Made by a program: the position numbers and the translations under genes | The notes under the pieces: model-generated | Databases searched by the model: none | What the model was told of the DNA's origin: nothing | What the model saw: the letters and a program-made list of their open reading frames with translations, nothing else | Source of the DNA: an uncultured Acidobacteriota bacterium | GTDB lineage: Bacteria > Acidobacteriota > Thermoanaerobaculia > UBA5066 > DATFVB01 | Length of the DNA stretch: 64,000 bases | NCBI GenBank assembly: GCA_963813155.1 | Contig: CAWEYG010000004.1 | Span: 1-64,000, forward strand | Direction of reading: 5' to 3' | In this document: positions 8,880-36,789 of the stretch, piece after piece | Layout of the letters: every line of letters begins with the position of its first letter | Numbering within the stretch: the stretch's first letter is position 1

Positions 8880-8888
8880 GGGTTCCTT

Positions 8889-22103: not shown

Positions 22104-22177
22104 GCCGTCATCCTACGACGAGAGGGGAATCGCGATTGACGAAACGCGAGCCGCGGCGATAGTCTGGCCGCGCGGGA

Positions 22178-23809
22178 ATGAAGAGCAGAATTGGAAAGGC
22201 GAGGGTTCGGCGCGGGCTGGTCGGCGGTGCGCTCCTTGCGGCTGCCGTCTTTTCCTGCGGGGCTTCGGCGGTCCTTCCGGATGCCCAGCGCTGGTGGTCG
22301 CACGTCCTCTTCCTCGCGGACGATCGTCTCGAGGGGCGCGCCCCCGGAAGCGAGGGTTACAAGAAGGCGTCGCGATACGTCGCGGACCGGCTTCGGAAGG
22401 CCGGCGCCGAGCCGCTCGGGACGAACGGGTACTTTCAATCGGTTCGGTTCGACGCGCGGCGGATTCGCGAAGAGGAGTCGAGCGCCGCTCTCGTGCGCGG
22501 AGCGAGCGTCGATCCGCTCGTCCCGGGGCGCGAGTTCGTGTTCGGCCTCCGCGCGGACCCGGCGGAAGAGGTCGACGCGCCTCTCGTGTTCGTCGGCCAC
22601 GGGCTCACGATTCCGGGAGCGCACGAAGACGATCTGTCCGGTTTGGATCTGCGGGGAAAGATCGCGGTGTACCTGACCGGGGCGCCGAAGTCCGTGCCCG
22701 GGCCCCTGGCGGCGGATGCCCAGTCCCAGAGGCAGCGGTGGGCCGCGCTTCGAAGCGCGGGCGCGGTCGGGGAAATCCGGATCGCGAACCCGCTCCACAT
22801 GGAGCGCTCCTGGGAAAAATCCGCGTCCGCCCGCCGGATGCCCTCGATGAGCCTCGCGGACCCGGAGCTCCGCGCCTCGCCGGGGGAGAAGATCTCGATG
22901 GGATTCAATCCGGCCTCCGCGGAAAAGCTGTTCGCAGGCTCCGGCCACACGTTCGCCGAAGTCGTGGACGGCGCGCGCCGCGGCGAGCGTCTCGCCGGGT
23001 TCGCGCTCGGAAGCTCGCTCCGGGCGAAAGTCCGGGTCGACCGTTGGAGCGTCGAGTCCGACAACGTCGTCGGCGTCGTGCGCGGCTCGGATCCGGCCCT
23101 GCGCGGCGAATATGTCCTGCTCACGGCCCATCTCGACCACCTCGGCATCGGGGAGCCGGTTTCGGGCGATCGGATTTACAACGGCGCGATGGACAACGCG
23201 TCCGGGGTCGCGACGCTTCTCGAAACCGCCGAGGCCCTGCGCGAGTCGGGAGAGCGCCCGAAGCGCTCCGTGATTTTCCTCGCCGTGACGGGCGAGGAGA
23301 GCGGACTCCTGGGCTCGGAGTTCTTCGCGGCGCATCCGACCGTGCCCCCCGGGTCGATCGTCGCCGATGTCAACATCGACATGTTTCTTCCCATTTTTCC
23401 GCTCCGCGTGCTGACCGTGGAAGGGCTGGACGAGTCGGACCTCGGGCCCCGTCTCGCCGCGATCGCAAAGTCTGCCGGCGTGGGCGTTCAGCCGGACCCG
23501 TATCCGGAGAGGAACTATTTCATCCGAAGCGACCAGTACAGCTTCATTCGCCGCGGAGTTCCTTCCATTGATTTCGACGTCGGGACCACGCCGGGTTCTC
23601 CGGAGGCGGCGGCCGAGGAGAAATGGATCCGGGAGCACTACCACGCCCCGTCCGACGACACTTCTCAGCCGATCGATTTCACGTGCGCGGCGGCCTACAA
23701 CCGGATCGTTCGGGCGCTCGCGATCGAAATTGCGAACGAGCCCTCGCGGCCGCGCTGGAACGCGACGAGCTTCTTTCGCCAGTACGCGGCCGGAACCGCT
23801 TCGAACTGA
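22178..23809 (+). CDS. Secreted M28 family metallopeptidase with PA domain
   Basis: Signal peptide, LADDRLEGR, TAHLDHLG, IYNGAMDNASG, TGEESGLLGS, RSDQYSF, YHAPSD. Confidence 0.9.
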   Translation: MKSRIGKARVRRGLVGGALLAAAVFSCGASAVLPDAQRWWSHVLFLADDRLEGRAPGSEGYKKASRYVADRLRKAGAEPLGTNGYFQSVRFDARRIREEESSAALVRGASVDPLVPGREFVFGLRADPAEEVDAPLVFVGHGLTIPGAHEDDLSGLDLRGKIAVYLTGAPKSVPGPLAADAQSQRQRWAALRSAGAVGEIRIANPLHMERSWEKSASARRMPSMSLADPELRASPGEKISMGFNPASAEKLFAGSGHTFAEVVDGARRGERLAGFALGSSLRAKVRVDRWSVESDNVVGVVRGSDPALRGEYVLLTAHLDHLGIGEPVSGDRIYNGAMDNASGVATLLETAEALRESGERPKRSVIFLAVTGEESGLLGSEFFAAHPTVPPGSIVADVNIDMFLPIFPLRVLTVEGLDESDLGPRLAAIAKSAGVGVQPDPYPERNYFIRSDQYSFIRRGVPSIDFDVGTTPGSPEAAAEEKWIREHYHAPSDDTSQPIDFTCAAAYNRIVRALAIEIANEPSRPRWNATSFFRQYAAGTASN

Positions 23810-23813
23810 CGCG

Positions 23814-24296
23814 ATGGCACTCGATCTCGGCGACAAGCTGTCCGGACGATTCGCCTCCCGCCTGGCGGCGCAATTCGGGTCATGGGCGCCGATCGCCGGC
23901 GATCTCGACCTTCCGAAAATCGACCGCGCGCCGGCTTCGGGGAAGTGGTCAGCCCGGCTGCACCTCGCGCACATCACGCGAATGCACGAGGTCTACGCCG
24001 CACGGATCGACGCGATCCTTTCGAAGGACGTGCCCGCGCTCGCTCCCTACCGCGCCGAGGCCGACGCCGAGTGGCCGAAATGGAGCGTCCTGCGGGCCCC
24101 CGAGATCTTCGAGCGCGCTCGCTCGCTGCGTGCGAGGATGATCGACGAGCTCCGCCCGCTGACGGACCTGGACCTCGCGCGCGTCGGCGAGCACGAAAGG
24201 CTCGGCCCGCTTCCCCTCTCGATGTGGCTCGAGTTCTTCCTCGTTCACGAGGGGCACCACCTCTACGAAATCTTGAAGCTCGTCCGGGAGCCCTAG
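23814..24296 (+). CDS. DinB/YfiT-like four-helix protein
   Basis: GKWSARLHLAHI and C-terminal VHEGHHL metal-binding histidines. Confidence 0.8.
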   Translation: MALDLGDKLSGRFASRLAAQFGSWAPIAGDLDLPKIDRAPASGKWSARLHLAHITRMHEVYAARIDAILSKDVPALAPYRAEADAEWPKWSVLRAPEIFERARSLRARMIDELRPLTDLDLARVGEHERLGPLPLSMWLEFFLVHEGHHLYEILKLVREP

Positions 24297-24334
24297 GCCC
24301 GGTTCGGAAGGGGGCCGCGCCGGACGCGCCGGCG

Positions 24335-25939
24335 TCAGGACGCTTTTCGCGACAGGTCCGCCGTCTCCGGCGGGGAAGTCTTGCGGGGAAGGCGGGCGAT
24401 TCGCGCCGCGTCGGGAAACGCCTGCAACGCCTTCTGGGCCTGGACGTCGTCTTTCAGGGCGCGTCTCCATCCTTCGTCCGGGCCGTATCGAAGAGTAAGA
24501 ACCTCGGACGCGACGTCGGAGTCGATGCGGGCGCGATCCGTGTCCCGCCGGTAGTCTTCGCGGGCGGCAGCCGCGCTTTCGATTTTCTGGCGCTCGAGGG
24601 ACCGGAAGAATTCCTCTCGAACCGAGTCGTCGGCGGCGAACTCGCGGCCGACTGAGGGATGGGCGGCGACGTAGTCGACCGCGAACGTGAAGAAGGCGCC
24701 CTGCGCCTGGAGCTTCCGTTCGAAGTCCGAGATCGATTCTGGCGCGACGACTTCATCGGGCGTGATTCCTCCCTCGCTTTTCACGGGGCGGCCGGCGTCG
24801 GTCGTGAAGGTCTTCGCTCCCGAGGGGGCGGGCTTTGCCGGTTGCGGGTGAGAGTCGGGGAAGAGGTACGCCGCGCGGTCCGAATAATCCCGCTGGATCC
24901 AGCGTCCCGACGGGGTGAGGTATCTCGCCGTCGTCAGCGCCAGGCCGGCGCCGTACGAGAGCGGGAAGACTCCCTGGACGAGGCCCTTTCCCCACGAGGT
25001 CGTGCCCACGATCCAGGCCCGGTCGTGGTCCTGCATCGCGCCCGCGACGATTTCCGACGCGGAGGCCGACCCGCGGTTGACCAGGATCACGAGCGGAACG
25101 TCGACGTGCTCGACGTTGCCCTCGGCCAGGTAGTCCTCGTTCGAGGCGGTCATGCGGCCGCGCGTCGAAACGATCTTCTGCCCCTTGCGGAGGAACATGT
25201 CGGCGATCTCGAGAGCGGGCTCGAGAGCTCCCCCCGGGTTGCCGCGAAGGTCGAACAGGAGGCTCTTCATGCCTTCGCCCTTCAATTGCCGGACCGCCTT
25301 CAGCGTGTCGTCGGCCGACGTTCGCGTGAACTCCGCGAGCTGAATGTAGCCGACCCCTCCCCCCAGGAGGAACGCGTGGCGCACCGAGCTGGACGGGATC
25401 TCGCCCCGGATCAGGGCGACGTGAATCGGCTCCGCGACGCCCGCCCGGCGCACGGTCAATCGAACGGTCGACCCTTTCGGCCCGCGCACCCGCGACGAGA
25501 CCTCGGCGGTGTCCCACGACGCGTCGGGCGGCTGCCCTTCGATTTCCGTGATGACGTCCCCGGCCTGCAGGCCGGCCTTGCCGGCGGGCGTTCCCGGCTT
25601 CACTTCCATGATCGTGATCCGGCCGTCCCGACGCTGCATCGAGATTCCGACGCCGAAGTAGGACCCGCGCTGCCGTTCCTCGAGCGAGCTGAAGGCCCCC
25701 GGCTCGAAAAACGTCGTGTGCGGATCGAGTGTGGAGATCATGCCCTGGATCGACGCGTAGACGAGCCGGTCGGCGGCGGCGTCGGTCACCGCCCATTCCT
25801 GGGCGGTCGAAACGAGCTGCGCGTATTCGTCGAGCGCTCCGCTCGGCACCGTTTCGGTCTTGTCCCGGCCGGCCGCGCCCCCGAGGAGCGTGACCGCGCC
25901 GAGAAGGCCCAAAGCGGCGAAAATCGATTTTCGGCTCAT
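24335..25939 (-). CDS. ctpA: Carboxyl-terminal processing protease (S41A, PDZ)
   Basis: LDPHT, PDZ (GVGI..GTPAGKAGL), DLRGNPGG, SASASEIVAGAMQD, GKGLVQ. Confidence 0.9.
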   Translation of the reverse strand: MSRKSIFAALGLLGAVTLLGGAAGRDKTETVPSGALDEYAQLVSTAQEWAVTDAAADRLVYASIQGMISTLDPHTTFFEPGAFSSLEERQRGSYFGVGISMQRRDGRITIMEVKPGTPAGKAGLQAGDVITEIEGQPPDASWDTAEVSSRVRGPKGSTVRLTVRRAGVAEPIHVALIRGEIPSSSVRHAFLLGGGVGYIQLAEFTRTSADDTLKAVRQLKGEGMKSLLFDLRGNPGGALEPALEIADMFLRKGQKIVSTRGRMTASNEDYLAEGNVEHVDVPLVILVNRGSASASEIVAGAMQDHDRAWIVGTTSWGKGLVQGVFPLSYGAGLALTTARYLTPSGRWIQRDYSDRAAYLFPDSHPQPAKPAPSGAKTFTTDAGRPVKSEGGITPDEVVAPESISDFERKLQAQGAFFTFAVDYVAAHPSVGREFAADDSVREEFFRSLERQKIESAAAAREDYRRDTDRARIDSDVASEVLTLRYGPDEGWRRALKDDVQAQKALQAFPDAARIARLPRKTSPPETADLSRKAS

Positions 25940-26070
25940 CCTGGTCAGTATACGCACGATCGCCTCGCGAAGTTACAACCGCGTTTCGTGTCCCGTCATT
26001 CCCCGAATCGCCTTGCCGCAGCGCCTCGGCCGGACCGCCGGTGTGCGATGATCGTGGGGGAGGATTCGCC

Positions 26071-27117
26071 ATGTCGTTCCGCCGCGCCGCATCGAGTTTC
26101 ATCGCCCTCGCCGCCATTTCCTTCGCCCTGGCCCGCGCCTCGTCCGGGGCTGAGACTGCGAAGGGGTACCATGTGATTCAGCGCGTCACGCTCGGAGGCG
26201 AGGGGAGGTGGGACTACCTTTCGATCGATCCCGACGCGCGCCGCCTCTACATTTCGCGAAGCAGCCATGTGATGGTCGTGGACGCCGATTCGCTCAAGCC
26301 GGTGGGGGATGTCCCCGGCACGGAGGGGATTCACGGCATCGCGCTCGCGCCCGGGCCGTCCCTCGGGTTCACGAGCAACGGGACGAGCCAGACGTCCACC
26401 GTCTTCGACCTGAAATCGCTGAAGACGGTCGCGACGGTCAAAGTCACGGGAGAGAAGCCGGACGCGATCCTCTACGACCCCGCCGCGAACCGGGTCTGGA
26501 CGTTCAACGGCAAGAGCGGAAACGCGACGGCGATCGAGGCGGGGGACCGCAAGATCGCGGGAACGGTCGCTCTCGGGGGCGCGCCGGAGTTCGCGACGAG
26601 CGACGCGGCCGGCCATATCTACGTGAACATCGAGGACAAGAGCGAGGTCGTGGCGATCGATGCGAAGACCCTCTCGGTCCTGCACCACTGGCCGCTCGCG
26701 CCCTGCGAAGAACCGAGCGGCATGGCCATCGACCGCGCGCACCGGCGGCTCTTCTCCGGATGCCACAACAAGATGATGGCCGTGATGGACGCCGACACGG
26801 GCAGGGTCGTCGCGACGGTGCCGATCGGCGCCGGCGTCGACGCGAACGCGTTCGACCCGGAGCCGGGTCTCGCGTTCAGCTCGAACGGAGACGGCACGCT
26901 GACGGTCGTCCACGAGGATTCGCCCGACAAATACACGGTCGTCGAGAACGTGCCGACCGAGAAGGGCGCGCGCACGATGGCCCTCGACCCGAAGACGCAC
27001 AGGATCTACCTCGTGACGGCGAAGTTCGGCCCGGCTCCCGCGGCGACCGCCGCCGAGCCTCATCCGAGGCCGGCGATGGAGCCCGGAAGCTTCCTTCTGC
27101 TCGTCGTCGGGAAGTAA
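26071..27117 (+). CDS. Secreted YncE/YVTN-like beta-propeller protein
   Basis: Signal peptide, GGEGRWDYLSID, repeated blades, GARTMALDPKTHRIYL. Confidence 0.8.
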   Translation: MSFRRAASSFIALAAISFALARASSGAETAKGYHVIQRVTLGGEGRWDYLSIDPDARRLYISRSSHVMVVDADSLKPVGDVPGTEGIHGIALAPGPSLGFTSNGTSQTSTVFDLKSLKTVATVKVTGEKPDAILYDPAANRVWTFNGKSGNATAIEAGDRKIAGTVALGGAPEFATSDAAGHIYVNIEDKSEVVAIDAKTLSVLHHWPLAPCEEPSGMAIDRAHRRLFSGCHNKMMAVMDADTGRVVATVPIGAGVDANAFDPEPGLAFSSNGDGTLTVVHEDSPDKYTVVENVPTEKGARTMALDPKTHRIYLVTAKFGPAPAATAAEPHPRPAMEPGSFLLLVVGK

Positions 27118-27118
27118 C

Positions 27119-28682
27119 CTAGAAGAAGCCGGTTCTCTCGAGCATGGCGGCGGCCTCTTCGCGCGTCGCGCCGAGTTTCGAAGCGGACCGGAGCAGGTCT
27201 TCCGCGACGACCGGATACCAGTTCCGGCGCGCCGGATCGCAGAGGCCCGGCAACGTTGAATGGCTCGATCGCGCGGCGGACCGATTCGATCAGATCGAGG
27301 CGCCGTTCGGGAGTCCGGCGAGCGTCCGCGGGCCGGCGAGCTTCTGCGCAGATCTTCCGAAGCGCCGGCCCGAACCGGGGCTCGCTCTGGAGCAGGAACG
27401 ACGGTGCGAGCTCCGGCCGTCCCAGCCGGCGCGCGCTCTCGGAGAAGCTCGCCGCCGCGAAGTAAAGCATCGTCAGCGCCGAGAAGACGGGGAAATCGTC
27501 GAAGTTCGCGTAGAGGGCCGCGACGAGGTCCGCGGCGGCATCCGCCTCGTCCAGGCCTCGTTGCGATTCCCCGCCGATCCGGGCGGCGAAACGGGCGGAG
27601 CCCCAGTCTTCTCGAACCACGCGCGCGAATCTCTCGATGCCGAGCAGCGCGAGCGGGATTCCCGTCGAGAGGAGCGGGTCGACGAAGGCCGCGGCCGACG
27701 GGAGGAGCGCCCAGTTTTCCCCCGAGGCGCGGCGGACCCGGAAGGAAAGGCGGGACGAATGCACCCAGGGAAGCAGCGGTTTCGCGCCGGCGAACTGGTC
27801 GCGGACGGTCGGCAGGCGGGACAGCAGCCGCGACCAGGCTACCCCGCCCGATGCCAGATCGAGCTCCTCCGCGAGAGCATCGGTGACCGCGCATCCGGCG
27901 CTCACGATCCCGTTCGAGAACCGCAGCACCCAGATCCAACCGCCGTCGAACACGTGGTGGAGCGCCGCGTCGTCCGCCGGATAAGGCGCGCCCCGAAAAT
28001 CGAGGGAAGGAGTCTCGTCGAGACGCGCGACGCCGTCGAAATGCGTGAAGAGCCCCTGTGTCGCGGGAAAGTTCGGGAATTCCCTTCCGTCGAGATCGAG
28101 GGCGCGCGCCAGGAACCCGCGGGGTCCCGAGGCGTCGAACGCGAATTTCGCCCGGATCGTGAGCGGCTTGCCGAGCCTCTCTCCCGCGATCTCCACTCCG
28201 GCGCCGTTCTCGGCGAAGGCGCGAAGCTCCGCGCGGTCGATGTACTCGGCGCCGAGCGCGCAGGCGTGGCGCATCAGGAAGTCGTCGACGTCGGCGCGGT
28301 ACCAGTGCGTGTCGGCGATCTCGTCCCTCGGGCTCGCCGCGACGAAGAGCTGCCCGCGCCGGTCGGGCGTCGTTCCGAAGGGCGCGCCGGTCGCGTGGCG
28401 GAAGAACGTGAATCCCCGTTTCAGGCCGCAGGCGATTTCCGGCCGCTCGCGCCGCCAGGCCCCCCATTTCGCGAGAGGCCGGAGCTCCGGAAGGTCGAAC
28501 TCGTCCGCGAATTGCTCGAGCAGGACGTTCGCGAGCGGCGAGGAGGATTCGCCGATCGCGAAGCGGGGGTGCGCTCCTTTCTCCAGCAGCACGACGGTTC
28601 GGCCGAGCTTTCGCGCGGCCGCGGCGAGGAGACTGCCCGCGAAGCCGGAGCCGACGATTGCGAGGTCGAACGCGCCCGTCAT
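27119..28682 (-). CDS. Flavin-dependent halogenase family protein (frameshift near 27245)
   Basis: GSGFAG FAD motif, HPRFAIGESS, candidate catalytic Lys in GLKRGF, FDASG, GWIWVL (WxWxI-like), FVDPLLSTG. Shifted C-terminus ..RRNWYPV..TGFF* ends at TAG 27119. Confidence 0.8.
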
Positions 28683-29686
28683 GCCCGGGCGCGTTCGAGC
28701 GCGAGAGTGACTTCTTCCGCCGAGGGCCGGCGCAGGGGAGCCGGCGCGACGGGACGATGGTCCGCGCACGGGAATCTCGCGATTCGCCCGGTCGCGTTCA
28801 GGGCCGCGAGCCGGCGCGTCTTCTCGGCCCGGCACCCGGGGCATCCCGGAAGCCGCTCGAGCGCTTCGTTTTCCGCCAGGAGGACGGGCGTCGGGCCGCT
28901 TCCGTCTCCCGCCGCCTCGGCGCAATCGCAGAGCGTCTCGAAGTATTCGTCGAGCGAGATCTCGGAAAAGAAGCCGGCGCGGCGCAGGGCCTCCATCGGC
29001 TCGTGCTCGGAAACGACGGGAAGAATCGAGACGACGCGGGCGCCCGCGCGGCGCGCCTCCGAGAACGTCTCAAGCACGCCGCGCCGCGCGCCGGCCTCGC
29101 CGACGAACGGCGGTCCCGCCAGAACGAACGTCCTCAGCAGAACGTCGCCGGCCGCCAACGCCGCCGCGGCCCCGCGGAAAGTCGCGGCGCTCGTCGGCTT
29201 GTTGAGGAGACGGAGGAGGGCGTCGTCGGCGGCCTCCAGCCCGATCGCGACCTCGAGCCGTCCCGTGAGGAGCGGGCGAAGGCGAGTTGCCCGCGGCGCG
29301 TTCTCGGATCGGGCTTCGACGACGACGAGATCCAGGCCGGACAGGGCGGCCGCGATCTCGCGCAGACTCGCGTCGCTCTGGTCGATCGAGCGAGGCTCGA
29401 AGAGCGAAGACGCGTTGTAGAGCTTGAGCCCCGAAGCCCCGGGATATTGCCGCCGCGCGGATTCGATCTGCGCAGCGATCTCGCGGCCGGTCGCGGGCCG
29501 CTCGTCCGTCTGGCGGTACAGCGCACAGTAGACGCAGGCGAGAGGGCACTCGCCGTTCCGAAGGAACACCGTCGCGATCTCGCGGGGAACGCCGTCCGGA
29601 AAGATCTCGACTTCGAGCTTTGCCGGCGCGGGACGAGGGTCCTTCGCGGCCCGGAGCGCCCGAACGGCACGGTCGAGCGCGTTCAT
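28679..29686 (-). CDS. Radical SAM protein resembling archaeosine-pathway RaSEA
   Basis: CPLACVYC (CX3CX2C), LKLYNASSLFEP, VVEAR, LEVAIGLE, LNKP, FVLAGPPF, and C-terminal CPGC...C. It is the last ~335 aa of ORF 28679..33127, starting at ATG 29686. Confidence 0.85.
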   Translation of the reverse strand: MNALDRAVRALRAAKDPRPAPAKLEVEIFPDGVPREIATVFLRNGECPLACVYCALYRQTDERPATGREIAAQIESARRQYPGASGLKLYNASSLFEPRSIDQSDASLREIAAALSGLDLVVVEARSENAPRATRLRPLLTGRLEVAIGLEAADDALLRLLNKPTSAATFRGAAAALAAGDVLLRTFVLAGPPFVGEAGARRGVLETFSEARRAGARVVSILPVVSEHEPMEALRRAGFFSEISLDEYFETLCDCAEAAGDGSGPTPVLLAENEALERLPGCPGCRAEKTRRLAALNATGRIARFPCADHRPVAPAPLRRPSAEEVTLALERARA

Positions 29687-31092
29687 GCGTTCGACGAGGC
29701 GTCCTCCCCGGCGGCGGCCGCGCGCGATCCGGCGAGCCCGGCGTCGCCGTCCCGCTCCGCAAAACCGGCGAACCGCGCTTCGTGCAGCCTCCTCAATTCC
29801 GCGCGCGTCGCCGCGAGTCTTTGCGAAAATACGGAAGCGGAAGTCGCGCCCCGCTGGAACCGCCGCTTCGGTGCGATCGGCGCCTCGCGGCCGAGGTCGC
29901 GAAGGCCCGCCCGGACGATCTCGCCCTTGAGGGACAGCAGGCGTTCCGTGTCCTGTCCCACGAGCTCGCGGAGAGGGGCGGCCAGAGCCGCCGCGATCGC
30001 CGGCCGCGAGGCGTGCGGCGAAAGGAGACGGAATCCGAATTCCCTCGCCGGCGCGAAGCCCCGGACGATCCCGCGCGAAAGGCCGCCCGAATACGTCAGG
30101 GAGTGCTTGATCGAATCGACGCCCCAACCCTCGTGGTAGAGCAGGGGATTGTTCAGCACGCTCTGGATCGTCACGTCGGAGTCCTCCGGCGGATACGACT
30201 TCCAGTTTTCGTCTCCTCCGTCGCCGTCGAAGAGGAAAACGAGCCCGGGCTCGACTTCCCGGAGCCTGCCCAGGAAGGCGCGTTCGACCGCCGCGCACTG
30301 AACGTCGAGGGGCCGGTAGTCCTCGATGCAGGCGACCGCCCGCGGCAGGTCGAGCGATTCGGGAGAGGCTTCGACCGCCGTCCAACGGTCGCGCATGCCG
30401 AGCGCGTCGGCGACCGTCTCCGCGGCCGATCGATCTTCCCCGTCCCCGATCGAAAGGGTATAGAGCCGAACGCGGTCCGTCTCGTTCCGGGATTTCAGGA
30501 CCTCTCCCAGGAGGGCCGCGACGGCCGTCGAGTCGGCGCCGCCCGAAAACGCGACGCCGAGGGGCGCGCCGCGCGGAAGGGCCTCGAGAGTGGAGGCGAT
30601 CGAATCTCTCAGGGCTTCGAAGTAGGCGGAGGCGAGCGCCGCCACGTCGGCCCGGCCCGCACCGGCCGCGGGCGAAAAGAACCGGCGATACCGGGGATTC
30701 GGATCGGGACAGCCGACCTGGTCGAGCTCGGTGAGGTAGTGCGCCGGGACGACCCGCGTGTAGGAAGGATGAAACTGCCACTCGATGCCTTCTCGCCGGC
30801 AATAGTCGGCGATCGCGTCGATCCGATCGGCAACGACGAGGTAAGGTCCCGTTTCCCGCTTCGCGACGAAATAGCGAAGCGGTCTTCCGAGGGTCCGGGC
30901 CAGCCGGATCGTCACGCCGTCGCGCGCGGCGGCGGCAAAGTTGCCCTCGACGCGCGACAACGCCTCGACGTCGCCGGATCGGACGATTTCCTCGACCTCG
31001 GCGCGGCCCGTATTGATCAGCAGATCGTCGTCCGGCTGCGACAGGTCGACGAGCCGGGGTTCGGTTCGGCCGGGAACGAAGGATGCGGGCAT
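29683..31092 (-). CDS. Asparagine-synthetase-related N-type ATP pyrophosphatase
   Basis: PP-loop FSGGADS, FDGDGGDE, PKRRFQ. Remnant Ntn domain (EGNFA..RLAR..GRPLRY) without the N-terminal Cys. GGAGG RBS. Confidence 0.85.
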   Translation of the reverse strand: MPASFVPGRTEPRLVDLSQPDDDLLINTGRAEVEEIVRSGDVEALSRVEGNFAAAARDGVTIRLARTLGRPLRYFVAKRETGPYLVVADRIDAIADYCRREGIEWQFHPSYTRVVPAHYLTELDQVGCPDPNPRYRRFFSPAAGAGRADVAALASAYFEALRDSIASTLEALPRGAPLGVAFSGGADSTAVAALLGEVLKSRNETDRVRLYTLSIGDGEDRSAAETVADALGMRDRWTAVEASPESLDLPRAVACIEDYRPLDVQCAAVERAFLGRLREVEPGLVFLFDGDGGDENWKSYPPEDSDVTIQSVLNNPLLYHEGWGVDSIKHSLTYSGGLSRGIVRGFAPAREFGFRLLSPHASRPAIAAALAAPLRELVGQDTERLLSLKGEIVRAGLRDLGREAPIAPKRRFQRGATSASVFSQRLAATRAELRRLHEARFAGFAERDGDAGLAGSRAAAAGEDASSNA

Positions 31093-31170
31093 AGAAAAGT
31101 CCTCCGCCGGGATCGTAGCGTTTTTCGCCGGGTGTTCGGAGAGGATTCTTCGAGCGCGGGCCGGCCGGAG

Positions 31171-33207
31171 TTACGGGTGAATCGGAGCTTTTCTGATCGG
31201 CGCGGGAGCGGGAGAAGTCGTCGCCGTGATCGATCGCGAAGACGCTGCGCCGGAACGGTAGGCGAAAACGCCGCCGCCGTAGGTCCCCGCGTAGATCTGG
31301 GACCCGGGCGCGACGCCCGCCGCGAGAGCGAAGACCGTCGAGTTCGTGAGCCCGGAGTTCATCGATGTCCAGGTGGCTCCGCCGTCGTCGGACCGGAAGA
31401 CTCCCGAGCCCTCCGTCCCGGCGAAAACGACGCCGGGCGTGTTGTGATCGACGGCGACCGAATAGACGACCGCGTCTCCCATGCCGCTGCCGGCCGGTTT
31501 CCAGGTCGCGCCGCCGTCCGACGTCCGGAACGCGCCGCTGTCGGTTCCCGCATACAGGATGGAAGGATCCGCCGCGTCCATCGCGATCGAATAGACCGAT
31601 CCCGTGGGAAGGCCCGCAGTCGCGGCCGCCCAGGACGACCCGGCGTTGAAGGTGCGGAAGACCCCGCTCGTGGTCGCGACGAGGACGACCGCCGGATTCA
31701 GCGGGTCGATCGCGATCGAGAAAACGGTCGTGCTCGCGACTCCGAGATCGAGCGGCTGCCAGGTGGATCCGCCGTCGGTGCTCTGGAAGAGCCCGCCCAT
31801 GAGCGTGCCCGCGTAAACCCGCGAGGGCTGGCCCGGGTCGACGGCAACGGCGTAGACGTTGTTCGTCGCGATGCCGGAGCTCGTCGAGATCCACGTCGAG
31901 CCGCGGTCGCTCGATTTGAAGATCCCCTCGTTCGTGCCGGCGTAGACGACCGGGGACGGCGCTGGCTCGATCGCAAGACCGTATACCGTCGAGTTGCGCG
32001 AGCCCGCCTGCGCCGGCGACCAGGTCGCGCCCGCGTCGTCGCTGCGCATGACCCCGCCGCCTCCGGTACCGGCGTAGATCGTCGGTGTATTTCCGTCCAC
32101 GATCAACGAATTGACGACCGTTCCGCGAACGCCGTCGTTTTCCTGCCGCCACGAGACTCCCGCGTCCACGCTCTTGAGCGTGCCGATGCTGGATCCCGCG
32201 TAAACCGTGGCCGGCGCGGAGGGGTCGAGGAGGATCGCGAAGACCGTCGTGTTTCCCGCGCCGCCGCCGGCTCGGGCCCAGGTCGCTCCGCCGTCGCCGC
32301 TCTTCAGCACGCCGGAATCGAGTGTGCCCACGTAGAGGGTTTGAGAAGCCGGATCGCTCGCGATCGAGAAAACTCGCGAGTTCGCCGGTTCGAGGGCGAG
32401 AGCCGTCCAATGTGCGCCGCCGTCGACGCTCTTGTACGCGCCGGACGAGTAAGTTCCGGCGTAGATCGTGGACGGAGACAGGCGATCGATCACGATGTCG
32501 AAAACGTAGGCGTCGCCGGGTCCGTCGCCGGCGGGCGCCCAGGAGAGTCCGGCGTTCCCGCTCGCGAAAATTCCCCGTCCCGCCGTTCCGGCGTACACGA
32601 GCGAGGGGGCAGCGGAGTTGACGGCGATCGAGTAGATCGGGACGCCCGCGAGCTCCTGTCCCGCAGAAACCCACGAGCCGCCGCCGTCCGCCGACTTGAA
32701 AATCCCTCCGGCCTGAGTTCCCGCATAGATCGTTCCGGCCCGGCCGGGATCCGCGGCGATCGCCAGGACGACCGTGTCGGAGAGACCGTTGTTCGCGAGA
32801 GTCCACGACCGGCCGCCGTTGGAGGTCTTGAGAATTCCGTCGCCCGTCGCCGCGTAAAACGTGCCGGCCGCCTGCAGATCGGCCGCGAGACCGTTGACGA
32901 CCGCGCCGCTCGTGCCCGTGTCGAGCGCGGACCAGGACTGACCCGAGTCGGTGCTCTTGAAGAGCCCGCCGCCGTAGGTCCCCTCGTAGATCGTCGTGGG
33001 CGACGCCGGGTCGATCGCGAGGGAGCTGACGAGCGCTCCTTCCGGTCCGAGGCTCGACCACCCGTTCGGGTTTGCGGTCGCGATCCCGGAAATCAGAGAG
33101 GCCGCCGCCGCTGCCATGACGAGGCACAGGGAGGCCCTTCCGTTTCGCCCGATATTGGATTTCTGGGTTACGTGGCGGAGGGTGCGGAAGAATCTTGCTC
33201 GCCCCAT
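31171..33207 (-). CDS. Secreted BNR/Asp-box repeat beta-propeller protein (start uncertain, 33118-33225)
   Basis: About 14 repeats of YAGT.GG.FxSxDGGxTW with hydrophobic signal-like segment CLVMAAAAASLISGIATA. Confidence 0.82.
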   Translation of the reverse strand: MGRARFFRTLRHVTQKSNIGRNGRASLCLVMAAAAASLISGIATANPNGWSSLGPEGALVSSLAIDPASPTTIYEGTYGGGLFKSTDSGQSWSALDTGTSGAVVNGLAADLQAAGTFYAATGDGILKTSNGGRSWTLANNGLSDTVVLAIAADPGRAGTIYAGTQAGGIFKSADGGGSWVSAGQELAGVPIYSIAVNSAAPSLVYAGTAGRGIFASGNAGLSWAPAGDGPGDAYVFDIVIDRLSPSTIYAGTYSSGAYKSVDGGAHWTALALEPANSRVFSIASDPASQTLYVGTLDSGVLKSGDGGATWARAGGGAGNTTVFAILLDPSAPATVYAGSSIGTLKSVDAGVSWRQENDGVRGTVVNSLIVDGNTPTIYAGTGGGGVMRSDDAGATWSPAQAGSRNSTVYGLAIEPAPSPVVYAGTNEGIFKSSDRGSTWISTSSGIATNNVYAVAVDPGQPSRVYAGTLMGGLFQSTDGGSTWQPLDLGVASTTVFSIAIDPLNPAVVLVATTSGVFRTFNAGSSWAAATAGLPTGSVYSIAMDAADPSILYAGTDSGAFRTSDGGATWKPAGSGMGDAVVYSVAVDHNTPGVVFAGTEGSGVFRSDDGGATWTSMNSGLTNSTVFALAAGVAPGSQIYAGTYGGGVFAYRSGAASSRSITATTSPAPAPIRKAPIHP

Positions 33208-33319
33208 GAGAGGTGGAGATTGCATAAACCGTGCCGTGTTGGTGACGGCGCTACCACCAGCAGATACTTGGGATTAGGAGTTTGCGGCGGCGGGGGCGCG
33301 GATTAGTCTCTCCTCCAGG

Positions 33320-34535
33320 GTGAAAAATCGAGCTCCCAACGCCGATGCTCGGAACGCGCTGATCGCCGGTTTTCTCGGCTGGACTCTCGACGCGTTCGAC
33401 TTCTTCGTCCTGACTTTCGTGCTCGTTCCCGTTGCCCACGAGTTCGGAAAGTCCGTTCCCGCGATCGCTCTCACCCTCACGGCGAGCCTCGCCATGCGCC
33501 CCATCGGCGCGCTGATCTTCGGGCTGATGGCCGACCGGTACGGGCGGCGGATTCCTCTCATGCTGGACGTGCTGTTCTATTCGATCGTCGAGGTTCTCTC
33601 CGGCTTCGCGCCGACGTACACGGTCTTTCTCGTCCTCCGCCTTCTCTACGGCATCGGCATGGGAGGCGAGTGGGGCGTGGGAGCTTCTCTGGCGATGGAA
33701 TCGGTTCCGGCGCGATGGCGGGGATTCCTTTCGGGGATTCTCCAGGAAGGCTACGCGTGCGGGTTTCTCCTCGCGGCGATCGCCTACGGATTCGTGTTTC
33801 CGCGATTCGGATGGCGCGCGCTCTTTTTTCTCGGCGGCGCCCCGGCGCTTCTCTCGCTTTTCATCCGGGCGAGGGTGAAGGAACCGGAGGCGTGGAAGGA
33901 GTCGAGAACCGACTGGACGAGCTACGGGCGATCGATCGCCCGCAACGCGAAGTTGTTCTTCTACCTGGTCCTGCTCATGGCGATGATGAACTTCATCTCG
34001 CATGGAACGCAGGACCTCTATCCCACGTATCTGCAGAAGCAGCGCGGCTTGAGCCCGCACACGACAGCGCTCGTGACGGTGATCTCGATGGTCGGCGCGA
34101 TTTTCGGGGGGTTGATCGTCGGCCACCTCTCGGACCGTTGGGGCCGGAGGCGCGCGATGGTCGCTTCGGTGCTGGCGGCCGTCGTTCTCGTTCCGTTGTG
34201 GATCGCCGCGCCGAACCTGTGGCTGATCGCCGCCGGCGCTTTCTGCATCCAGTTCATGGTGCAGGGAGCGTGGGGCGTCATTCCGGCTCACATCAACGAG
34301 CTCTCGCCCGCTGGCGCTTCGGGGATTCTTTCCGGGGTTTGCGTACCAGGTCGGCGTGCTCGTGGCTTCGACGATCACGTACGCCGAGGCCGTGCTCGCG
34401 GAGCATTTCAGCTACGCGCAGGCGATGGGATCCCTGGCCTGCGCGGTCCTCCTCGTCGGCGCGCTCGTGATCTGGCTCGGGCCGGAGGCGCACGGCGTCT
34501 CCTTTCGAGGCGAAACGAGAGAAACGCCGGGCTGA
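33320..34535 (+). CDS. MFS transporter, SHS (NanT/JEN1-like) carboxylate family (frameshift near 34315)
   Basis: GFLGWTLDAFDFF, ADRYGRR, GMGGEWG, SHGTQDLYPT, GAWGVIPAHINELSP. Shifted tail ..GPEAHGVSFRGETRETPG*. Confidence 0.88.
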
Positions 34536-34536
34536 G

Positions 34537-36789
34537 TCACAGGCGGATACGGCGAGTCACGAAGCTCGCGTCGCCGGTCTGGCTCGGGACCGCGGTCGGG
34601 GGACGCGCCGCGAGAATCTCCGAGCCCGACGCCGGGATTCCTTCCGTGCGATCCACGAGGATGAAAGTCGGGGAGCCGGCGGACACCTCGCCCGCGATCT
34701 CCACTCCGGCTGCCGGAAGGGTGACGCAGGAATAGCTGCTCCATCCGTTGCTACGGGCAAGGGCGCGTGCCGAGAGGGACGGGACGAGGACGCCCCCGAT
34801 CGAGAAGCGCTCGACGCGGGCGGCCGGAGGAAACGAGATCCGCGCGAAACGGGCGCCGCGGGGCGAAACGATCCTTCCGCGAAATCTCACCCGGCCATTT
34901 GCCTCCGTCCTCTCCTCGAGGCGGAACTCCGGCCCCGCCACGACCTCGGGAGGTGCGGCAGCCTCAAGCGCACGCAGCGGCGACCAGGGAAAAGGAGATC
35001 CGGGGACACGGCCGAACTTTCCGGCGGCGGAGAGCGCGAGAGGCACCGGCGCGCCGTCGAGGATCCACTCCGCGCGGCCCGAATCCGCGTCCTGGTGCCA
35101 GAAGATCGTGAGCCGCTCGGGCGAATCGGCGGTATACGGCGCGAGCCCGATCGAGGCAAGGAGCAGCGCCGCGCTTCCCGCGCCGAGACCGAGGAGAAGG
35201 ACTCTCCGGGACGGCGCGCCGAGTCGGGCGGCGAACGGAACGAGAGTCGTCGCGGGAAGTGCGACGGCCACCGCGATCACCGCGACGCCGCCGAAACCGA
35301 GCGCCTCCCACAGGCGCCACGCCATGGGCAGCCAGAGGAACGCCGCGACGGGGGGAGCGACCAGAGCCGTGCCTCTTTCGGGGTCGAGCGCGGAGGGGAT
35401 CCCGACCGCCGCGACCAGCGGAACGAGAAACAGAAAGCTCATTCCCGGGAGCGCCGCCGCGGCGGCGACTCCGAGCAGTGCCCATGCGGTCCAGACTCCG
35501 GCCGAGAGGCCCGCGGGGCGGATCCGCCGCGCGGCCGGAAGCGCGATCGCCCAGACCGCCGCGAGCGCGAGGAGCCACAGGCCGGCGAGCGGCGCGACCG
35601 GATGCGCCGTCCAGGAGGAAGGCAGGATTCCCGCGCTCTTCAGGAGGGAGCCCGCGGCGAAAGCGGCGAGGGCAGGGACGGCGATCATTCCCGCGAACAG
35701 GGCAAGAGCCGCCAGCCATTCCGAGACTCGGAGAGCTTTCCTTCGAAAGAAGAGAGCCAGTCCGAGCGCGAGCAGGAGAGTCGTCGCGACGGCGATGGGC
35801 AACGTCCAGGCTTCCGGCCAGCCGACGATTTTCACGCCGAACACGTCGAAGAAGACGGCATCGCCTTTCGGTCCGGGCCCCGCGCTCTCCGCGGAGAGCG
35901 ACAGCGATTCCACCATGGCGAGCGCATTCTCGCCCTGATGCTGCAGCGTCGCGAGGCTCGCGTGAGCCAGATCGTCCCGCGGCGTGTGGTAGTGGGAGAC
36001 TCCGCCGATGCAGGCGAAATTTACCCCGGCCATTCCCTGCCGCCGGAAGACGGTGAGGTCCGTGTCGTTCGGGAGCATCCGGTAGATCGCCGGAAAGACG
36101 GAGCTCGAGACCGGATGGGGAATGGCGCTCGCCGCCTCGATCAGCCACCGGTTGTCGTGGCTCGTTTCGAAAAGAAGGCTCGCGCCTGACGTCCCTCTCG
36201 CCTCGAGGTTGACGACGGCGGAGATATCCCGGGCCCACGGGTGCTTCGTCGCGAATGCCTCCGCGCCGAGGAGGCCCTGTTCCTCGCCGTCGTCGAGGAG
36301 AAAGACGACGGGCCGCGTGCGAGGGGGAGCCGACCCGAGGATTCGCGCGATTTCGAGCGCGCTGGCGACACCGAGGCCGTCATCGGACGCTCCGGGCCCT
36401 GCTTCGACGGAATCGTAGTGGGCCGAGAGCAGAACGGCCCCCCGCTCTTCCCGTCCCGGCCGGCGCGCGAGGACGTTTCGCACCGTCCCGCAGGTGCCGT
36501 AGCTCCCGCAGACGAACTCTTCCTGGATCGAGGGCGAATAGCCCATTCCGGCGAGCGCCGCGACGATTCGGGACTCGACGAGCGCGTTTTCTGCGCTGCC
36601 CTCGGGATGCGGAGTCTCCGGCTCGAGCACCGAACGAAGAAGATTCCTCGCGCGGGAAGCCGAGAAGAGCTCCGGCGGAGCGTTCGCGGGAGCGGGGGAG
36701 GGCGGACCGTTTCGGGCGAGACCGGCCGTGAAGAGCAGCGCGCAGAGGGCGGAGACGAAGAGGAGCCGGGGGCCGGGTCGCGAAGCCAC
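34537..36789 (-). CDS. Membrane-anchored M28 metallopeptidase (ERMP1/Pff1-like architecture)
   Basis: SAHYDSV..PGASDDG, DGEEQGLLGA, NLEARG, PNDTDL, YHTPRD, followed by multiple TM helices and a C-terminal soluble domain. Confidence 0.85.
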   Translation of the reverse strand: MASRPGPRLLFVSALCALLFTAGLARNGPPSPAPANAPPELFSASRARNLLRSVLEPETPHPEGSAENALVESRIVAALAGMGYSPSIQEEFVCGSYGTCGTVRNVLARRPGREERGAVLLSAHYDSVEAGPGASDDGLGVASALEIARILGSAPPRTRPVVFLLDDGEEQGLLGAEAFATKHPWARDISAVVNLEARGTSGASLLFETSHDNRWLIEAASAIPHPVSSSVFPAIYRMLPNDTDLTVFRRQGMAGVNFACIGGVSHYHTPRDDLAHASLATLQHQGENALAMVESLSLSAESAGPGPKGDAVFFDVFGVKIVGWPEAWTLPIAVATTLLLALGLALFFRRKALRVSEWLAALALFAGMIAVPALAAFAAGSLLKSAGILPSSWTAHPVAPLAGLWLLALAAVWAIALPAARRIRPAGLSAGVWTAWALLGVAAAAALPGMSFLFLVPLVAAVGIPSALDPERGTALVAPPVAAFLWLPMAWRLWEALGFGGVAVIAVAVALPATTLVPFAARLGAPSRRVLLLGLGAGSAALLLASIGLAPYTADSPERLTIFWHQDADSGRAEWILDGAPVPLALSAAGKFGRVPGSPFPWSPLRALEAAAPPEVVAGPEFRLEERTEANGRVRFRGRIVSPRGARFARISFPPAARVERFSIGGVLVPSLSARALARSNGWSSYSCVTLPAAGVEIAGEVSAGSPTFILVDRTEGIPASGSEILAARPPTAVPSQTGDASFVTRRIRL

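What the first reader, a model, noticed from the sequence alone, without database searches (positions are those of the whole stretch)
27119..31092. Coupled operon of an amide-ligase-like enzyme, a RaSEA-like radical SAM enzyme and a flavin halogenase: candidate undescribed pathway
Seen: three co-directional genes joined by ATGA stop/start overlaps (29683-29686 and 28679-28682), with a GGAGG RBS and a TACGAT box upstream of the first. Known: N-type ATP pyrophosphatases adenylate carboxylates to form amides, RaSEA cleaves a lysine adduct during archaeosine synthesis, and FADH2-dependent halogenases chlorinate aromatic rings. Inference: the three act on one substrate, for example by ligating an amine or amino acid, cleaving a C-N bond by radical chemistry and halogenating, giving a small halogenated metabolite, cofactor or base/protein modification. 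No NRPS/PKS, carrier protein or precursor peptide lies nearby, and I know of no characterised pathway with this trio.
Basis: partly seen in the sequence, partly recalled or inferred. Interest (0 to 1): 0.82.

Follow-up and report, generated by a model that had tools for sequence, protein, structure and literature searches.

The report
Conserved amide-ligase, radical-SAM, halogenase operon
Three tightly coupled enzyme genes form a widespread, still unnamed cassette that travels through bacterial evolution together with one large secreted propeller protein, which suggests an undescribed pathway whose product is unknown.

Summary
Three minus-strand genes (29683-31092, 28679-29686, 27119-28682) are joined by ATGA overlaps behind a GGAGG site. 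One correction: the window has an extra base at 27244 that breaks gene 3. Related contigs from three runs lack that base, so an assembly slip is likely.

Gene 1 has the beta-lactam-synthetase/AsnB fold, a PP-loop and no glutaminase cysteine. Gene 2 is a radical SAM enzyme, nearest to RaSEA but far below its family cut-off. Gene 3 is a PltM/CtcP-like flavin halogenase with an invariant lysine and an altered WxWxIP motif.

The order is kept in 18 of 20 kin loci and 56 of 80 loci from several phyla. Genes 1 and 2 are the core; Flavobacteriaceae loci lack the halogenase.

New here: the pair co-occurs with a ~1100-aa secreted TPR/FG-GAP/ASPIC (CRTAC1-like) protein. The same 14 of 251 Bacteroidota genomes carry both, and the two lie within 5 kb in 17 of 80 loci.

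I found no paper on this cassette. My best reading is that it makes or tailors a small amide or lactam compound linked to that protein (confidence 0.45). The main rival is maturation of the protein itself. The product is unknown.

The parts
31112..31117 (-). TACGAT, a weak -10-like word upstream of gene 1
   Evidence: Read. The sigma-70 consensus scan reported no promoter-like site here.
31101..31105 (-). GGAGG ribosome-binding site, 8 nt before the ATG of gene 1
   Evidence: Sequence read.
29683..31092 (-). Gene 1 (P0001, 469 aa): ATP-dependent amide/lactam synthetase of the AsnB / beta-lactam-synthetase fold. It has the PP-loop SGGADS and no N-terminal glutaminase cysteine.
   Evidence: PF00733 at E 3.9e-13. 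The model has pLDDT 87.4. The best fold match is beta-lactam synthetase 1mbz at E 4e-14, TM 0.62, 455 columns. The family alignment A3 has 55 sequences and 48% mean identity.
28679..29686 (-). Gene 2 (P0002, 335 aa): radical SAM enzyme with CxxxCxxC at C47/C51/C54 and a conserved C-terminal cysteine triad (C282, C285, C307). Its start overlaps the stop of gene 1 in ATGA.
   Evidence: TIGR01210 (RaSEA) scores 54.6 bits against a cut-off of 212; PF04055 scores 25.8 bits against a cut-off of 29.5. Alignments A1 and A4. The model has pLDDT 95.9 and a generic radical SAM barrel; the best match is MgmA at TM 0.50.
27119..28682 (-). Gene 3 (P0003): PltM/CtcP-like flavin-dependent halogenase, 520 aa once the extra base is left out. 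As written in the window, its frame runs on to 27060.
   Evidence: Best solved relatives are PltM at E 4.6e-47 and tetracycline 7-halogenase at E 5.6e-45. PF04820 scores 33.8 bits against a cut-off of 21. The lysine in GLKRGF is invariant in 40 of 40 sequences. Frame analysis.
27244..27244 (.). One extra base that shifts the frame of gene 3. It is probably an assembly indel.
   Evidence: Contigs of runs X1, X2 and X4 (three studies) leave it out. All homologues read the C-terminus in one frame.

Best explanation
This is a real, translationally coupled, widely conserved enzyme cassette with no described function.

The core is a pair. Gene 1 has the beta-lactam-synthetase/AsnB fold but no glutaminase nucleophile, so it should adenylate a carboxylate and close an amide or lactam bond without glutamine. 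Gene 2 is a radical SAM enzyme that then performs a radical step on that adduct. By analogy with RaSEA this may be cleavage of a C-N bond, which would leave the nitrogen behind. In many phyla, including this genome, a third enzyme follows. It is a PltM/CtcP-type flavin-dependent halogenase, which would chlorinate or brominate an electron-rich ring of the same free small molecule.

The cassette works in the cytoplasm, but it is functionally tied to one secreted ~1100-aa TPR/FG-GAP/ASPIC (CRTAC1-like) protein with an undescribed C-terminal domain. In this genome that protein is encoded on another contig. I therefore read the product as a small amide or lactam compound, halogenated where gene 3 is present, that serves that periplasmic protein as ligand, cofactor or signal.

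Shown: the gene structure, the folds and motifs, the conserved order, and the co-inheritance. Inferred: the substrate, the order of the steps, halogenation as opposed to hydroxylation, and the nature of the link to the secreted protein.
For: Coupling and families.

Gene 1. The full-length fold matches beta-lactam synthetase, carbapenam synthetase, AsnB/ASNS and TsnB9. The PP-loop and a DGDGGDEN block are invariant, and no N-terminal Cys is conserved (the protein starts MPAS).

Gene 3. The solved relatives that score far best act, as recalled, on free phenolic substrates: PltM and CtcP at E about 1e-46, against PltA at 1e-18. The lysine aligned with the PltM catalytic lysine is kept in 40 of 40 sequences.

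Conserved order. All three genes are present in order in 18 of 20 kin loci and 56 of 80 loci from Acidobacteriota, Gemmatimonadota, Armatimonadota, Planctomycetota, Rhodothermus and delta-proteobacterial MAGs.

Co-inheritance in a sample of 301 Acidobacteriota. Gene 1 is present in 27 genomes. Gene 3 matches at E <= 1e-30 are also present in 27 genomes. Of these, 24 lie in genomes with gene 1, and 23 of those lie within about 3 kb on the same contig. The other 3 are 27-30% identical paralogues.

Link to the secreted protein. In 251 Bacteroidota genomes, gene 1 and the protein's C-terminal domain are each found in 14 genomes, and these are the same 14 handles. In G340, G345, G373 and G521 the two genes lie more than 200 kb apart. 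Among 41 kin, 32 have both, 5 have neither, 3 have the protein only, and 1 has the radical SAM gene only; that last genome is 51% complete. The domain lies within 5 kb of gene 2 in 17 of 80 loci, and FG-GAP/ASPIC genes of any kind do so in 31 of 80. In Flavobacteriaceae the secreted-protein genes and the pair form one co-directional array.
Against: No product, substrate or transporter is identified, and no flavin reductase lies in the operon.

The halogenase motif WxWxIP is never intact. IP is replaced by LR, LH, LQ or LG in 40 of 40 sequences, and the second W is Y in 11 of 40, so hydroxylation or another flavin reaction is not excluded.

Gene 2 fails the RaSEA cut-off and has no close solved relative, so its chemistry is a guess.

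Strict co-inheritance with a single secreted protein fits a protein-maturation system at least as naturally as a small-molecule pathway. Gene 3 also gives weak hits to the protein-modifying flavoenzymes QhpG, LodB and GoxB.

In this genome the cassette is not next to any ASPIC gene; all 11 hits lie on other contigs. As assembled, gene 3 is frame-shifted in the window.

Kin genomes are not independent, so the co-occurrence counts overstate the support.
Confidence: 0.45

Rival explanations
1. The cassette is a protein maturase. The two or three cytoplasmic enzymes modify the TPR/FG-GAP/ASPIC protein, or a partner of it, before export. Gene 1 would activate an Asp or Glu side chain to form an isopeptide or amide link, gene 2 would add a radical cross-link or cleavage, and gene 3 would halogenate or hydroxylate an aromatic residue. 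This would build a protein-derived cofactor or cross-link.
For: The pair is present or absent together with one near-single-copy secreted protein in exactly the same genomes (14 of 14 and 0 of 237), even where the genes are unlinked. The two are often adjacent (17 of 80). Gene 3 gives weak hits to QhpG (60.5 bits), LodB and GoxB, which are flavoenzymes that modify a residue of a secreted quinoprotein. AsnB-fold enzymes that act on peptides exist (lasso cyclase family hit of 21.6 bits). Recalled precedents are anaerobic sulfatase-maturing radical SAM enzymes and QhpD/QhpG.
Against: The closest solved relatives of genes 1 and 3 all act on free small molecules. No peptide-binding (RRE-like) domain was found in genes 1-3, and no fused long form of gene 2 was found. 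Bacteroidota do without gene 3, so any halogenated or hydroxylated residue would not be essential. No conserved linear target motif was identified in the protein; the alignment shows only scattered invariant residues.
Confidence: 0.25
2. The cassette is a salvage or catabolic pathway. A compound captured at the cell surface by FG-GAP/ASPIC proteins and imported through TonB-dependent receptors and binding-protein transporters is processed in the cytoplasm by the pair, and by the flavoenzyme where present.
For: TonB-dependent receptors lie beside the cassette in 10 of 80 loci, and an NMT1-type ABC system in 4. The Flavobacteriaceae array holds two periplasmic binding proteins and a RidA-like protein. 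A radical SAM lyase used in salvage (queuine lyase 6p78) is among the fold matches.
Against: An ATP-consuming amide ligase is unusual in catabolism. The transport genes are seen in a minority of loci and not in the window. The co-inheritance is with one specific protein and not with transporters.
Confidence: 0.1
3. The cassette modifies a nucleoside or tRNA, as with ArcS/RaSEA. Gene 1 would attach an amine donor to a base, and gene 2 would trim it.
For: The nearest curated family of gene 2 is RaSEA (E 9.4e-15). PP-loop ATPases include tRNA-modifying enzymes, with weak fold hits to NcsA and LarE. RaSEA converts preQ0-lysine in tRNA to archaeosine, and its partner ArcS does not use NH4+, Asn or Gln as nitrogen source (passages of PMC11298593).
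Against: The score is a quarter of the family cut-off. No RNA-binding domain was found in any of the three proteins. The distribution is patchy (27 of 301 and 14 of 251 genomes), and the tie to a secreted protein is not what a translation-related function predicts.
Confidence: 0.06
4. The three genes are only neighbours and share no task.
For: None beyond the lack of direct functional data.
Against: The stop and start codons overlap. The same order is kept across at least five phyla. The gene 3 matches of 38-62% identity were found only in genomes that carry gene 1 in the Acidobacteriota sampled.
Confidence: 0.02

Closest known systems
Beta-lactam synthetase / carbapenam synthetase (AsnB-fold enzymes without glutaminase activity)
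   Same: The full-length fold matches, including a degenerate N-terminal domain (1mbz at TM 0.62 over 455 columns; CarA 1q19). The PP-loop is present and the N-terminal Cys nucleophile is absent. Recalled: these enzymes adenylate a carboxylate and close an amide bond with no external nitrogen donor.
   Different: Sequence identity is only 16-20%. The family has its own invariant motifs: GCPDP, EGWG, KHS and PKRRFQxG. The context is also different, because there are no clavam or carbapenem genes and the enzyme is always paired with a radical SAM enzyme.
ArcS-RaSEA (archaeosine synthesis with lysine as nitrogen donor)
   Same: A radical SAM enzyme whose nearest curated family is RaSEA sits directly after an enzyme that should make a C-N adduct. 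In archaea ArcS adds lysine and RaSEA converts the adduct to the amidine, and the two proteins form a complex (passages of PMC11298593).
   Different: Gene 2 scores 54.6 bits against a cut-off of 212. The partner is an ATP-dependent AsnB-fold enzyme and not an ArcTGT-like ArcS. The hosts are bacteria, and there is no sign of an RNA substrate.
PltM and CtcP (tetracycline 7-halogenase), flavin-dependent halogenases of free phenolic substrates
   Same: These are the best solved relatives, at E 4.6e-47 and 5.6e-45 over about 405 residues. The GxGxxG motif and the lysine aligned with the PltM lysine are kept in 40 of 40 sequences.
   Different: WxWxIP reads W-x-W/Y-x-L-R/H/Q/G and is never IP. The C-terminal 100 residues are family-specific. 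The enzyme is encoded only behind the gene 1/gene 2 pair and not in a polyketide cluster.
CRTAC1-family FG-GAP/ASPIC proteins beside hydrazine-synthase-like haem proteins (Hagglund et al. 2025, PMC12758564)
   Same: One Flavobacteriaceae genome carries the pair at the end of an array with HZS_alpha-like, propeller plus dihaem peroxidase-like, CRTAC1-like and two binding-protein genes. This is the same kind of cluster that the paper describes (passages).
   Different: The paper does not mention an asparagine-synthase-like or radical SAM gene (0 occurrences of each). The window's genome has no PF18582 match, so this link is not general.

Membership tests
Asparagine synthetase B (glutamine-hydrolysing, TIGR01536) | N-terminal Cys nucleophile of the class II glutaminase domain | tested here: not met
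   P0001 begins MPASF. No Cys is conserved before position 128 in 55 sequences.
Asparagine synthetase B (glutamine-hydrolysing, TIGR01536) | PP-loop SGGxDS and the synthetase-domain fold | tested here: met
   SGGADS lies at residues 183-188, and S183, G185, D187 and S188 are invariant. The fold matches ASNS and AsnB.
Asparagine synthetase B (glutamine-hydrolysing, TIGR01536) | Curated family score | tested here: not met
   44.8 bits against a cut-off of 267.1.
Beta-lactam synthetase / carbapenam synthetase | AsnB fold with an inactive N-terminal domain | tested here: met
   1mbz at E 4e-14, TM 0.62, 455 aligned columns; 1q19 at E 1.7e-11.
Beta-lactam synthetase / carbapenam synthetase | Catalytic Tyr/Glu and Lys residues of lactam closure (recalled) | not tested
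   No residue-level superposition was made.
RaSEA (TIGR01210) | Radical SAM CxxxCxxC motif | tested here: met
   C47, C51 and C54 are invariant.
RaSEA (TIGR01210) | Curated family score | tested here: not met
   54.6 bits against a cut-off of 212.15, and the match covers only profile positions 12-209 of 313.
RaSEA (TIGR01210) | Encoded with, and acting with, ArcS on preQ0-lysine in tRNA | not tested
   The neighbour is an AsnB-fold enzyme. I did not search the genome for ArcS or ArcTGT.
Flavin-dependent halogenase | GxGxxG flavin-binding motif | tested here: met
   GSGFAGS lies at residues 11-17 and is kept in 37 of 40 sequences; two have GAG and one has GGG in place of GSG.
Flavin-dependent halogenase | Catalytic lysine (PltM K87 and PrnA K79, numbers recalled) | tested here: met
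   The K of GLKRGF aligns with the K of PltM CGIKLGF and is invariant in 40 of 40 sequences.
Flavin-dependent halogenase | WxWxIP motif (recalled) | tested here: not met
   The motif reads GGWIWVLRF. IP is absent in 40 of 40 sequences and the second W is Y in 11 of 40.
Flavin-dependent halogenase | Pfam Trp_halogenase score | tested here: met
   PF04820 scores 33.8 bits against a cut-off of 21. The specific NCBIfam model for CmlS is not met, at 63 bits against 900.

The most novel reading that the evidence does not exclude
The gene 1/gene 2 pair is a new, bacterial, glutamine-independent nitrogen-installing or cofactor-building system. It would be the ATP-dependent counterpart of ArcS/RaSEA. 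An amino-acid amine is ligated to a carboxylate and then trimmed by radical chemistry. The product, halogenated in most phyla, is the dedicated cofactor or a covalent modification of a so far function-less family of secreted CRTAC1-like TPR/FG-GAP/ASPIC propeller proteins. This would give the first biochemical handle on bacterial CRTAC1 homologues.
Probability: 0.2. Interest if true: 0.85.

Novelty: new variant of a known kind. Interest (0 to 1): 0.68.

Why it matters
The gene 1 family alone fills at least 7998 sequence clusters at 90% identity, and every source name listed among the best 120 is generic. It occurs in soil and marine phyla that are poorly studied biochemically: Acidobacteriota, Gemmatimonadota, Armatimonadota, Planctomycetota, Verrucomicrobiota and Bacteroidota.

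A fixed pairing of an amide or lactam synthetase with a radical SAM enzyme, often followed by a halogenase of its own clade, is a compact and testable candidate for new chemistry.

Its co-inheritance with one secreted CRTAC1-like protein gives a concrete experimental entry to a very large family of bacterial FG-GAP/ASPIC proteins. My searches turned up no report of a bacterial function for that family.

Cultured carriers exist (Maribacter and Sunxiuqinia), so the question can be tested directly.

Tried and rejected
Complex of genes 1 and 2 (complex prediction). The answer was no verdict, with run scores of 0.33, 0.01 and 0.00. It is no evidence either way.

Expression. No RNA holder was listed for the stretch, so nothing can be said about expression.

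Fused forms of gene 2. A search among longer proteins found none, which is weak evidence.

Sequence search of gene 2 against solved structures gave 0 hits. The fold search gave only generic radical SAM barrels.

ESM Atlas for genes 1 and 2 gave only generic cluster names.

C-terminal domain of the secreted protein. There was no PDB sequence hit at E <= 1 and no Pfam family beyond the ASPIC edge. Two rows of alignment A5, at 20-21% identity, were probably out of register.

RnfD/NqrB-like membrane protein. It lies beside ASPIC genes near the cassette in 8-9 loci, but it was not found in the window's genome with one query. I dropped it as a general partner.

Hydrazine-synthase-alpha-like domain PF18582. 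It lies beside the pair in one Flavobacteriaceae genome and has no match in the window's genome. I dropped it as a general partner.

ASPIC domain in general (PF07593). All 27 Acidobacteriota and all 14 Bacteroidota genomes with gene 1 have it. However, so do 137 of 274 and 98 of 237 genomes without gene 1. The general domain is therefore necessary company, not specific company. The specific partner is the long form with the C-terminal domain.

Precursor peptide. The window has only 78 bp between gene 1 and the upstream gene, and a convergent gene abuts gene 3. I did not scan other loci for small ORFs.

Literature. Searches found no paper on this gene combination. A 2026 preprint on sponge halogenase clusters concerns halogenase plus AMP-ligase clusters, not this cassette (passages).

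Unpublished genomes. G002 and G008 are counted (loci L003 and L019). G087 and G183 are counted. Leaving them out changes no conclusion.

Full report
OBSERVATION

The window is high in G+C (0.64-0.72). On the minus strand three ORFs follow one another:
- 29683-31092 (P0001, 469 aa);
- 28679-29686 (P0002, 335 aa);
- a third that starts at 28682.

The junctions read ATGA at 29683-29686 and 28679-28682. GGAGG lies 8 nt before the first ATG, and TACGAT a few bases further up. The consensus scan found no sigma-70-like promoter, and terminator-like sites were not above the shuffles.

The upstream co-directional gene is a BNR/sortilin-like propeller that ends 78 bp before gene 1. The downstream gene is convergent and abuts gene 3. 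Further neighbours are M28 and S41 peptidases and an MFS transporter. There is no NRPS, PKS, carrier protein or precursor gene. The upstream gene is kept only in close kin.

Read in one frame, gene 3 runs to 27060 and ends in an Arg-rich tail. That frame encodes a C-terminus (…NWYPV…AEDLL…GFF) which all six homologues inspected carry in a single frame.

The shift lies where the window has one base more than its relatives. Contigs assembled from 3 of the 4 public runs laid, from three studies, leave out one base at 27244. One of these contigs differs from the window at 13 positions and one gap over 1731 bases. The fourth run does not cover the place.

With that base left out the gene is 1563 nt and 520 aa, is open, and ends at the TAG at 27119-27121. 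The sister genome (87% identical proteins) has frame breaks of its own at other places in genes 1 and 3. Assembly indels are the simplest explanation. A private mutation is not excluded.

WHAT THE THREE PROTEINS ARE

Gene 1 matches Pfam Asn_synthase (E 3.9e-13) but no specific curated family. The AlphaFold model, built on 55 homologues, has pLDDT 87.4. It matches beta-lactam synthetase over its whole length (1mbz, E 4e-14, TM 0.62, 455 columns), followed by human ASNS, carbapenam synthetase, E. coli AsnB and TsnB9.

The PP-loop is invariant. The protein starts MPAS, and no N-terminal cysteine is conserved. It therefore has the adenylating half of an asparagine synthetase and a dead glutaminase-like domain, as the lactam synthetases do (recalled). 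The family is unusually conserved, at 48% mean identity across phyla, and has its own invariant blocks.

Gene 2 has the radical SAM CxxxCxxC motif and three further conserved cysteines near the C-terminus. Its nearest curated family is RaSEA, but the score is 54.6 bits against a cut-off of 212. It has no sequence relative among solved structures. Its confident model (pLDDT 95.9) matches only generic radical SAM barrels.

Gene 3 is closest to PltM and to tetracycline 7-halogenase (E about 1e-46), far ahead of PltA, CmlS and other halogenases. The flavin motif and the lysine aligned with the PltM lysine are kept in 40 of 40 family members. The WxWxIP motif is never intact.

IS THE TRIO A UNIT?

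Yes.
- A gene 2 match was found in 34 of 41 genomes of the same order; one of these is only a weak match at E 1.7e-4.
- In 18 of the 20 loci fetched, all three genes lie in the same order. The other two have genes 1 and 2 only.
- A scan of one genome per species found 224 relatives. Of the best 80 loci, 56 hold all three in order, 16 hold genes 1 and 2 without gene 3, 5 hold genes 2 and 3 without gene 1 (some of these are cut by contig ends), and 3 hold gene 2 alone.
- The 56 come from Acidobacteriota, Gemmatimonadota, Armatimonadota, Planctomycetota, Rhodothermus and delta-proteobacterial MAGs.
- The loci without gene 3 are mostly Flavobacteriaceae, other Bacteroidota and Verrucomicrobiales. 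One such genome has no gene 3 homologue anywhere at E <= 1e-10.

In 301 sampled Acidobacteriota, gene 1 is in 27 genomes from 18 of 192 genera. Gene 3-like matches are also in 27 genomes. Of those 27:
- 24 are in gene 1 genomes. In 23 of these, gene 3 lies within about 3 kb of gene 1 on the same contig. In the remaining one, the two genes lie on different contigs and gene 1 is at a contig end.
- 3 are distant paralogues (27-30% identity) in genomes without gene 1.

Three gene 1 genomes gave no gene 3 match. The cassette is patchy and accessory, not housekeeping.

A NEW LEAD: A SECRETED PARTNER

I clustered the ORFs of the 80 loci. The commonest neighbour family, present in 31 loci, consists of FG-GAP/VCBS propellers with the UnbV_ASPIC domain, which are CRTAC1-like. 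All 8 members scanned carry these domains. They have signal peptides.

In Flavobacteriaceae they stand directly before the pair on the same strand.

The general ASPIC domain is company rather than a specific partner:

| Sample | Genomes with gene 1 that have ASPIC | Genomes without gene 1 that have ASPIC |
|---|---|---|
| Acidobacteriota | 27 of 27 | 137 of 274 |
| Bacteroidota | 14 of 14 | 98 of 237 |

The specific partner is a long form of about 1100-1190 aa. It has a signal or lipoprotein peptide, TPR repeats, an FG-GAP propeller, an ASPIC domain, and a conserved ~440-aa C-terminal domain with no Pfam family and no solved relative.

I searched with that C-terminal domain alone:
- It is found in 14 of the 251 Bacteroidota genomes, and these are the same 14 handles that carry gene 1. 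In four of them the two genes lie more than 200 kb apart on one contig.
- Among the 41 kin, 32 genomes have both this domain and gene 2, and 5 have neither. Three have the domain only. One, which is 51% complete, has gene 2 only.
- The domain lies within 5 kb of gene 2 in 17 of the 80 loci.

The window's genome has one copy, on contig C2 (P0184, 1089 aa). It lies in a cluster of FG-GAP/ASPIC genes, not on the window's contig.

Kin are not independent, and two samples are not a census. Even so, co-inheritance of unlinked genes in two phyla is strong evidence of a shared function.

HOW IT MOST LIKELY WORKS

Shown: three coupled cytoplasmic enzymes, their folds and motifs, conservation as a unit, and co-inheritance with one secreted protein.

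Inferred:
- Gene 1 adenylates a carboxylate and forms an amide or lactam without glutamine.
- Gene 2 carries out a radical step on that adduct. The only functional analogy is RaSEA, which converts a lysine adduct made by its partner into an amidine, so that lysine serves as the nitrogen donor. ArcS does not use NH4+, Asn or Gln (passages of PMC11298593).
- Gene 3, where present, halogenates an electron-rich ring of a free substrate, as its nearest solved relatives do (recalled).

I favour a small-molecule product that serves the secreted protein (0.45), because the closest solved relatives of genes 1 and 3 act on free small molecules.

The main rival (0.25) is that the enzymes mature the secreted protein itself before export. 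Strict one-to-one co-inheritance is typical of maturase and substrate pairs, and gene 3 has weak similarity to QhpG, LodB and GoxB.

A salvage pathway fed by TonB-dependent receptors and binding proteins is a further rival (0.1). Such genes are seen beside the cassette in some loci and in the G336 array.

RNA modification is unlikely (0.06).

COMPARISON WITH WHAT IS KNOWN, AND NOVELTY

Each enzyme belongs to a known superfamily, but none passes the cut-off of a characterised family. The combination matched no paper in eight full-text searches. Every name that public sources give the listed gene 1 relatives is generic, and at least 7998 clusters at 90% identity score E <= 1e-40.

One paper (PMC12758564; abstract and passages read) describes CRTAC1-like genes beside hydrazine-synthase-like genes. 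One Flavobacteriaceae genome shows the pair at the end of such an array. The paper does not mention the pair, and the window's genome lacks that haem-protein domain.

I rate the cassette a new variant of a known kind, namely a compact tailoring or biosynthetic operon. It has a partner relationship that is new.

VERDICT

Its interpretation is partly right. Interest is 0.68. The product and the chemistry remain unknown, but cultured carriers make the question directly testable.

Noticed in passing
L101:267-19999 and L102:448-1395 (G336, contig C2, Flavobacteriaceae MAG): This is a co-directional array of 13 genes: two FG-GAP/ASPIC proteins, an HZS_alpha-like protein, a propeller fused to a dihaem peroxidase-like domain, another propeller, a RidA-like protein, two periplasmic binding proteins, a DAHP/KDO8P-synthase-like protein, the long TPR/FG-GAP/ASPIC protein, a short ASPIC protein, and then the gene 1 and gene 2 homologues. 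It resembles the hydrazine-synthase-homologue clusters described in PMC12758564.
   Followed up: partly
L106:238-1896 (G000 contig C2, beside the FG-GAP/ASPIC cluster that holds the partner protein): This ORF has a partial match to a voltage-gated chloride channel (CLC; PF00654, E 2.9e-18). The position is curious given a putative halogenase elsewhere in the genome, but it may be coincidence.
   Followed up: no
L052:2709-3584, L036:7490-8368, L072:8116-8994, L095:9382-10281 and others: A ~290-aa integral membrane protein of the NqrB/RnfD family (PF03116 above cut-off in 3 of 4 scanned) lies next to a ~600-650-aa ASPIC gene near the cassette in 8-9 of 80 loci. It has a conserved APITGPMYQLFxFFMITDP motif. 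It was not found in the window's genome with one query.
   Followed up: partly
L021 (sister MAG, 87% identical proteins), about 4180-7600: The gene 1 and gene 3 homologues are each split over two frames at places other than in the window. This fits indel errors in long-read assemblies.
   Followed up: partly
window 21348-27117 and 31171-36789: The surroundings are rich in secreted or degradative proteins: two M28 peptidases, an S41 peptidase with a PDZ domain, an endonuclease/exonuclease/phosphatase-family protein, a BNR/sortilin-like propeller directly upstream of the operon (kept only in close kin), and a propeller gene whose stop abuts that of gene 3.
   Followed up: partly
P0002 residues 282-307 (window about 28766-28843, minus strand): A CxxC…C triad is nearly invariant in 58 homologues. 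It may bind a second iron-sulfur cluster or zinc.
   Followed up: no
G000 contig C2, L106:8193-10000: An FG-GAP/ASPIC gene appears split over two overlapping frames (8193-9074 and 8477-10000). This may be another indel in this assembly.
   Followed up: no
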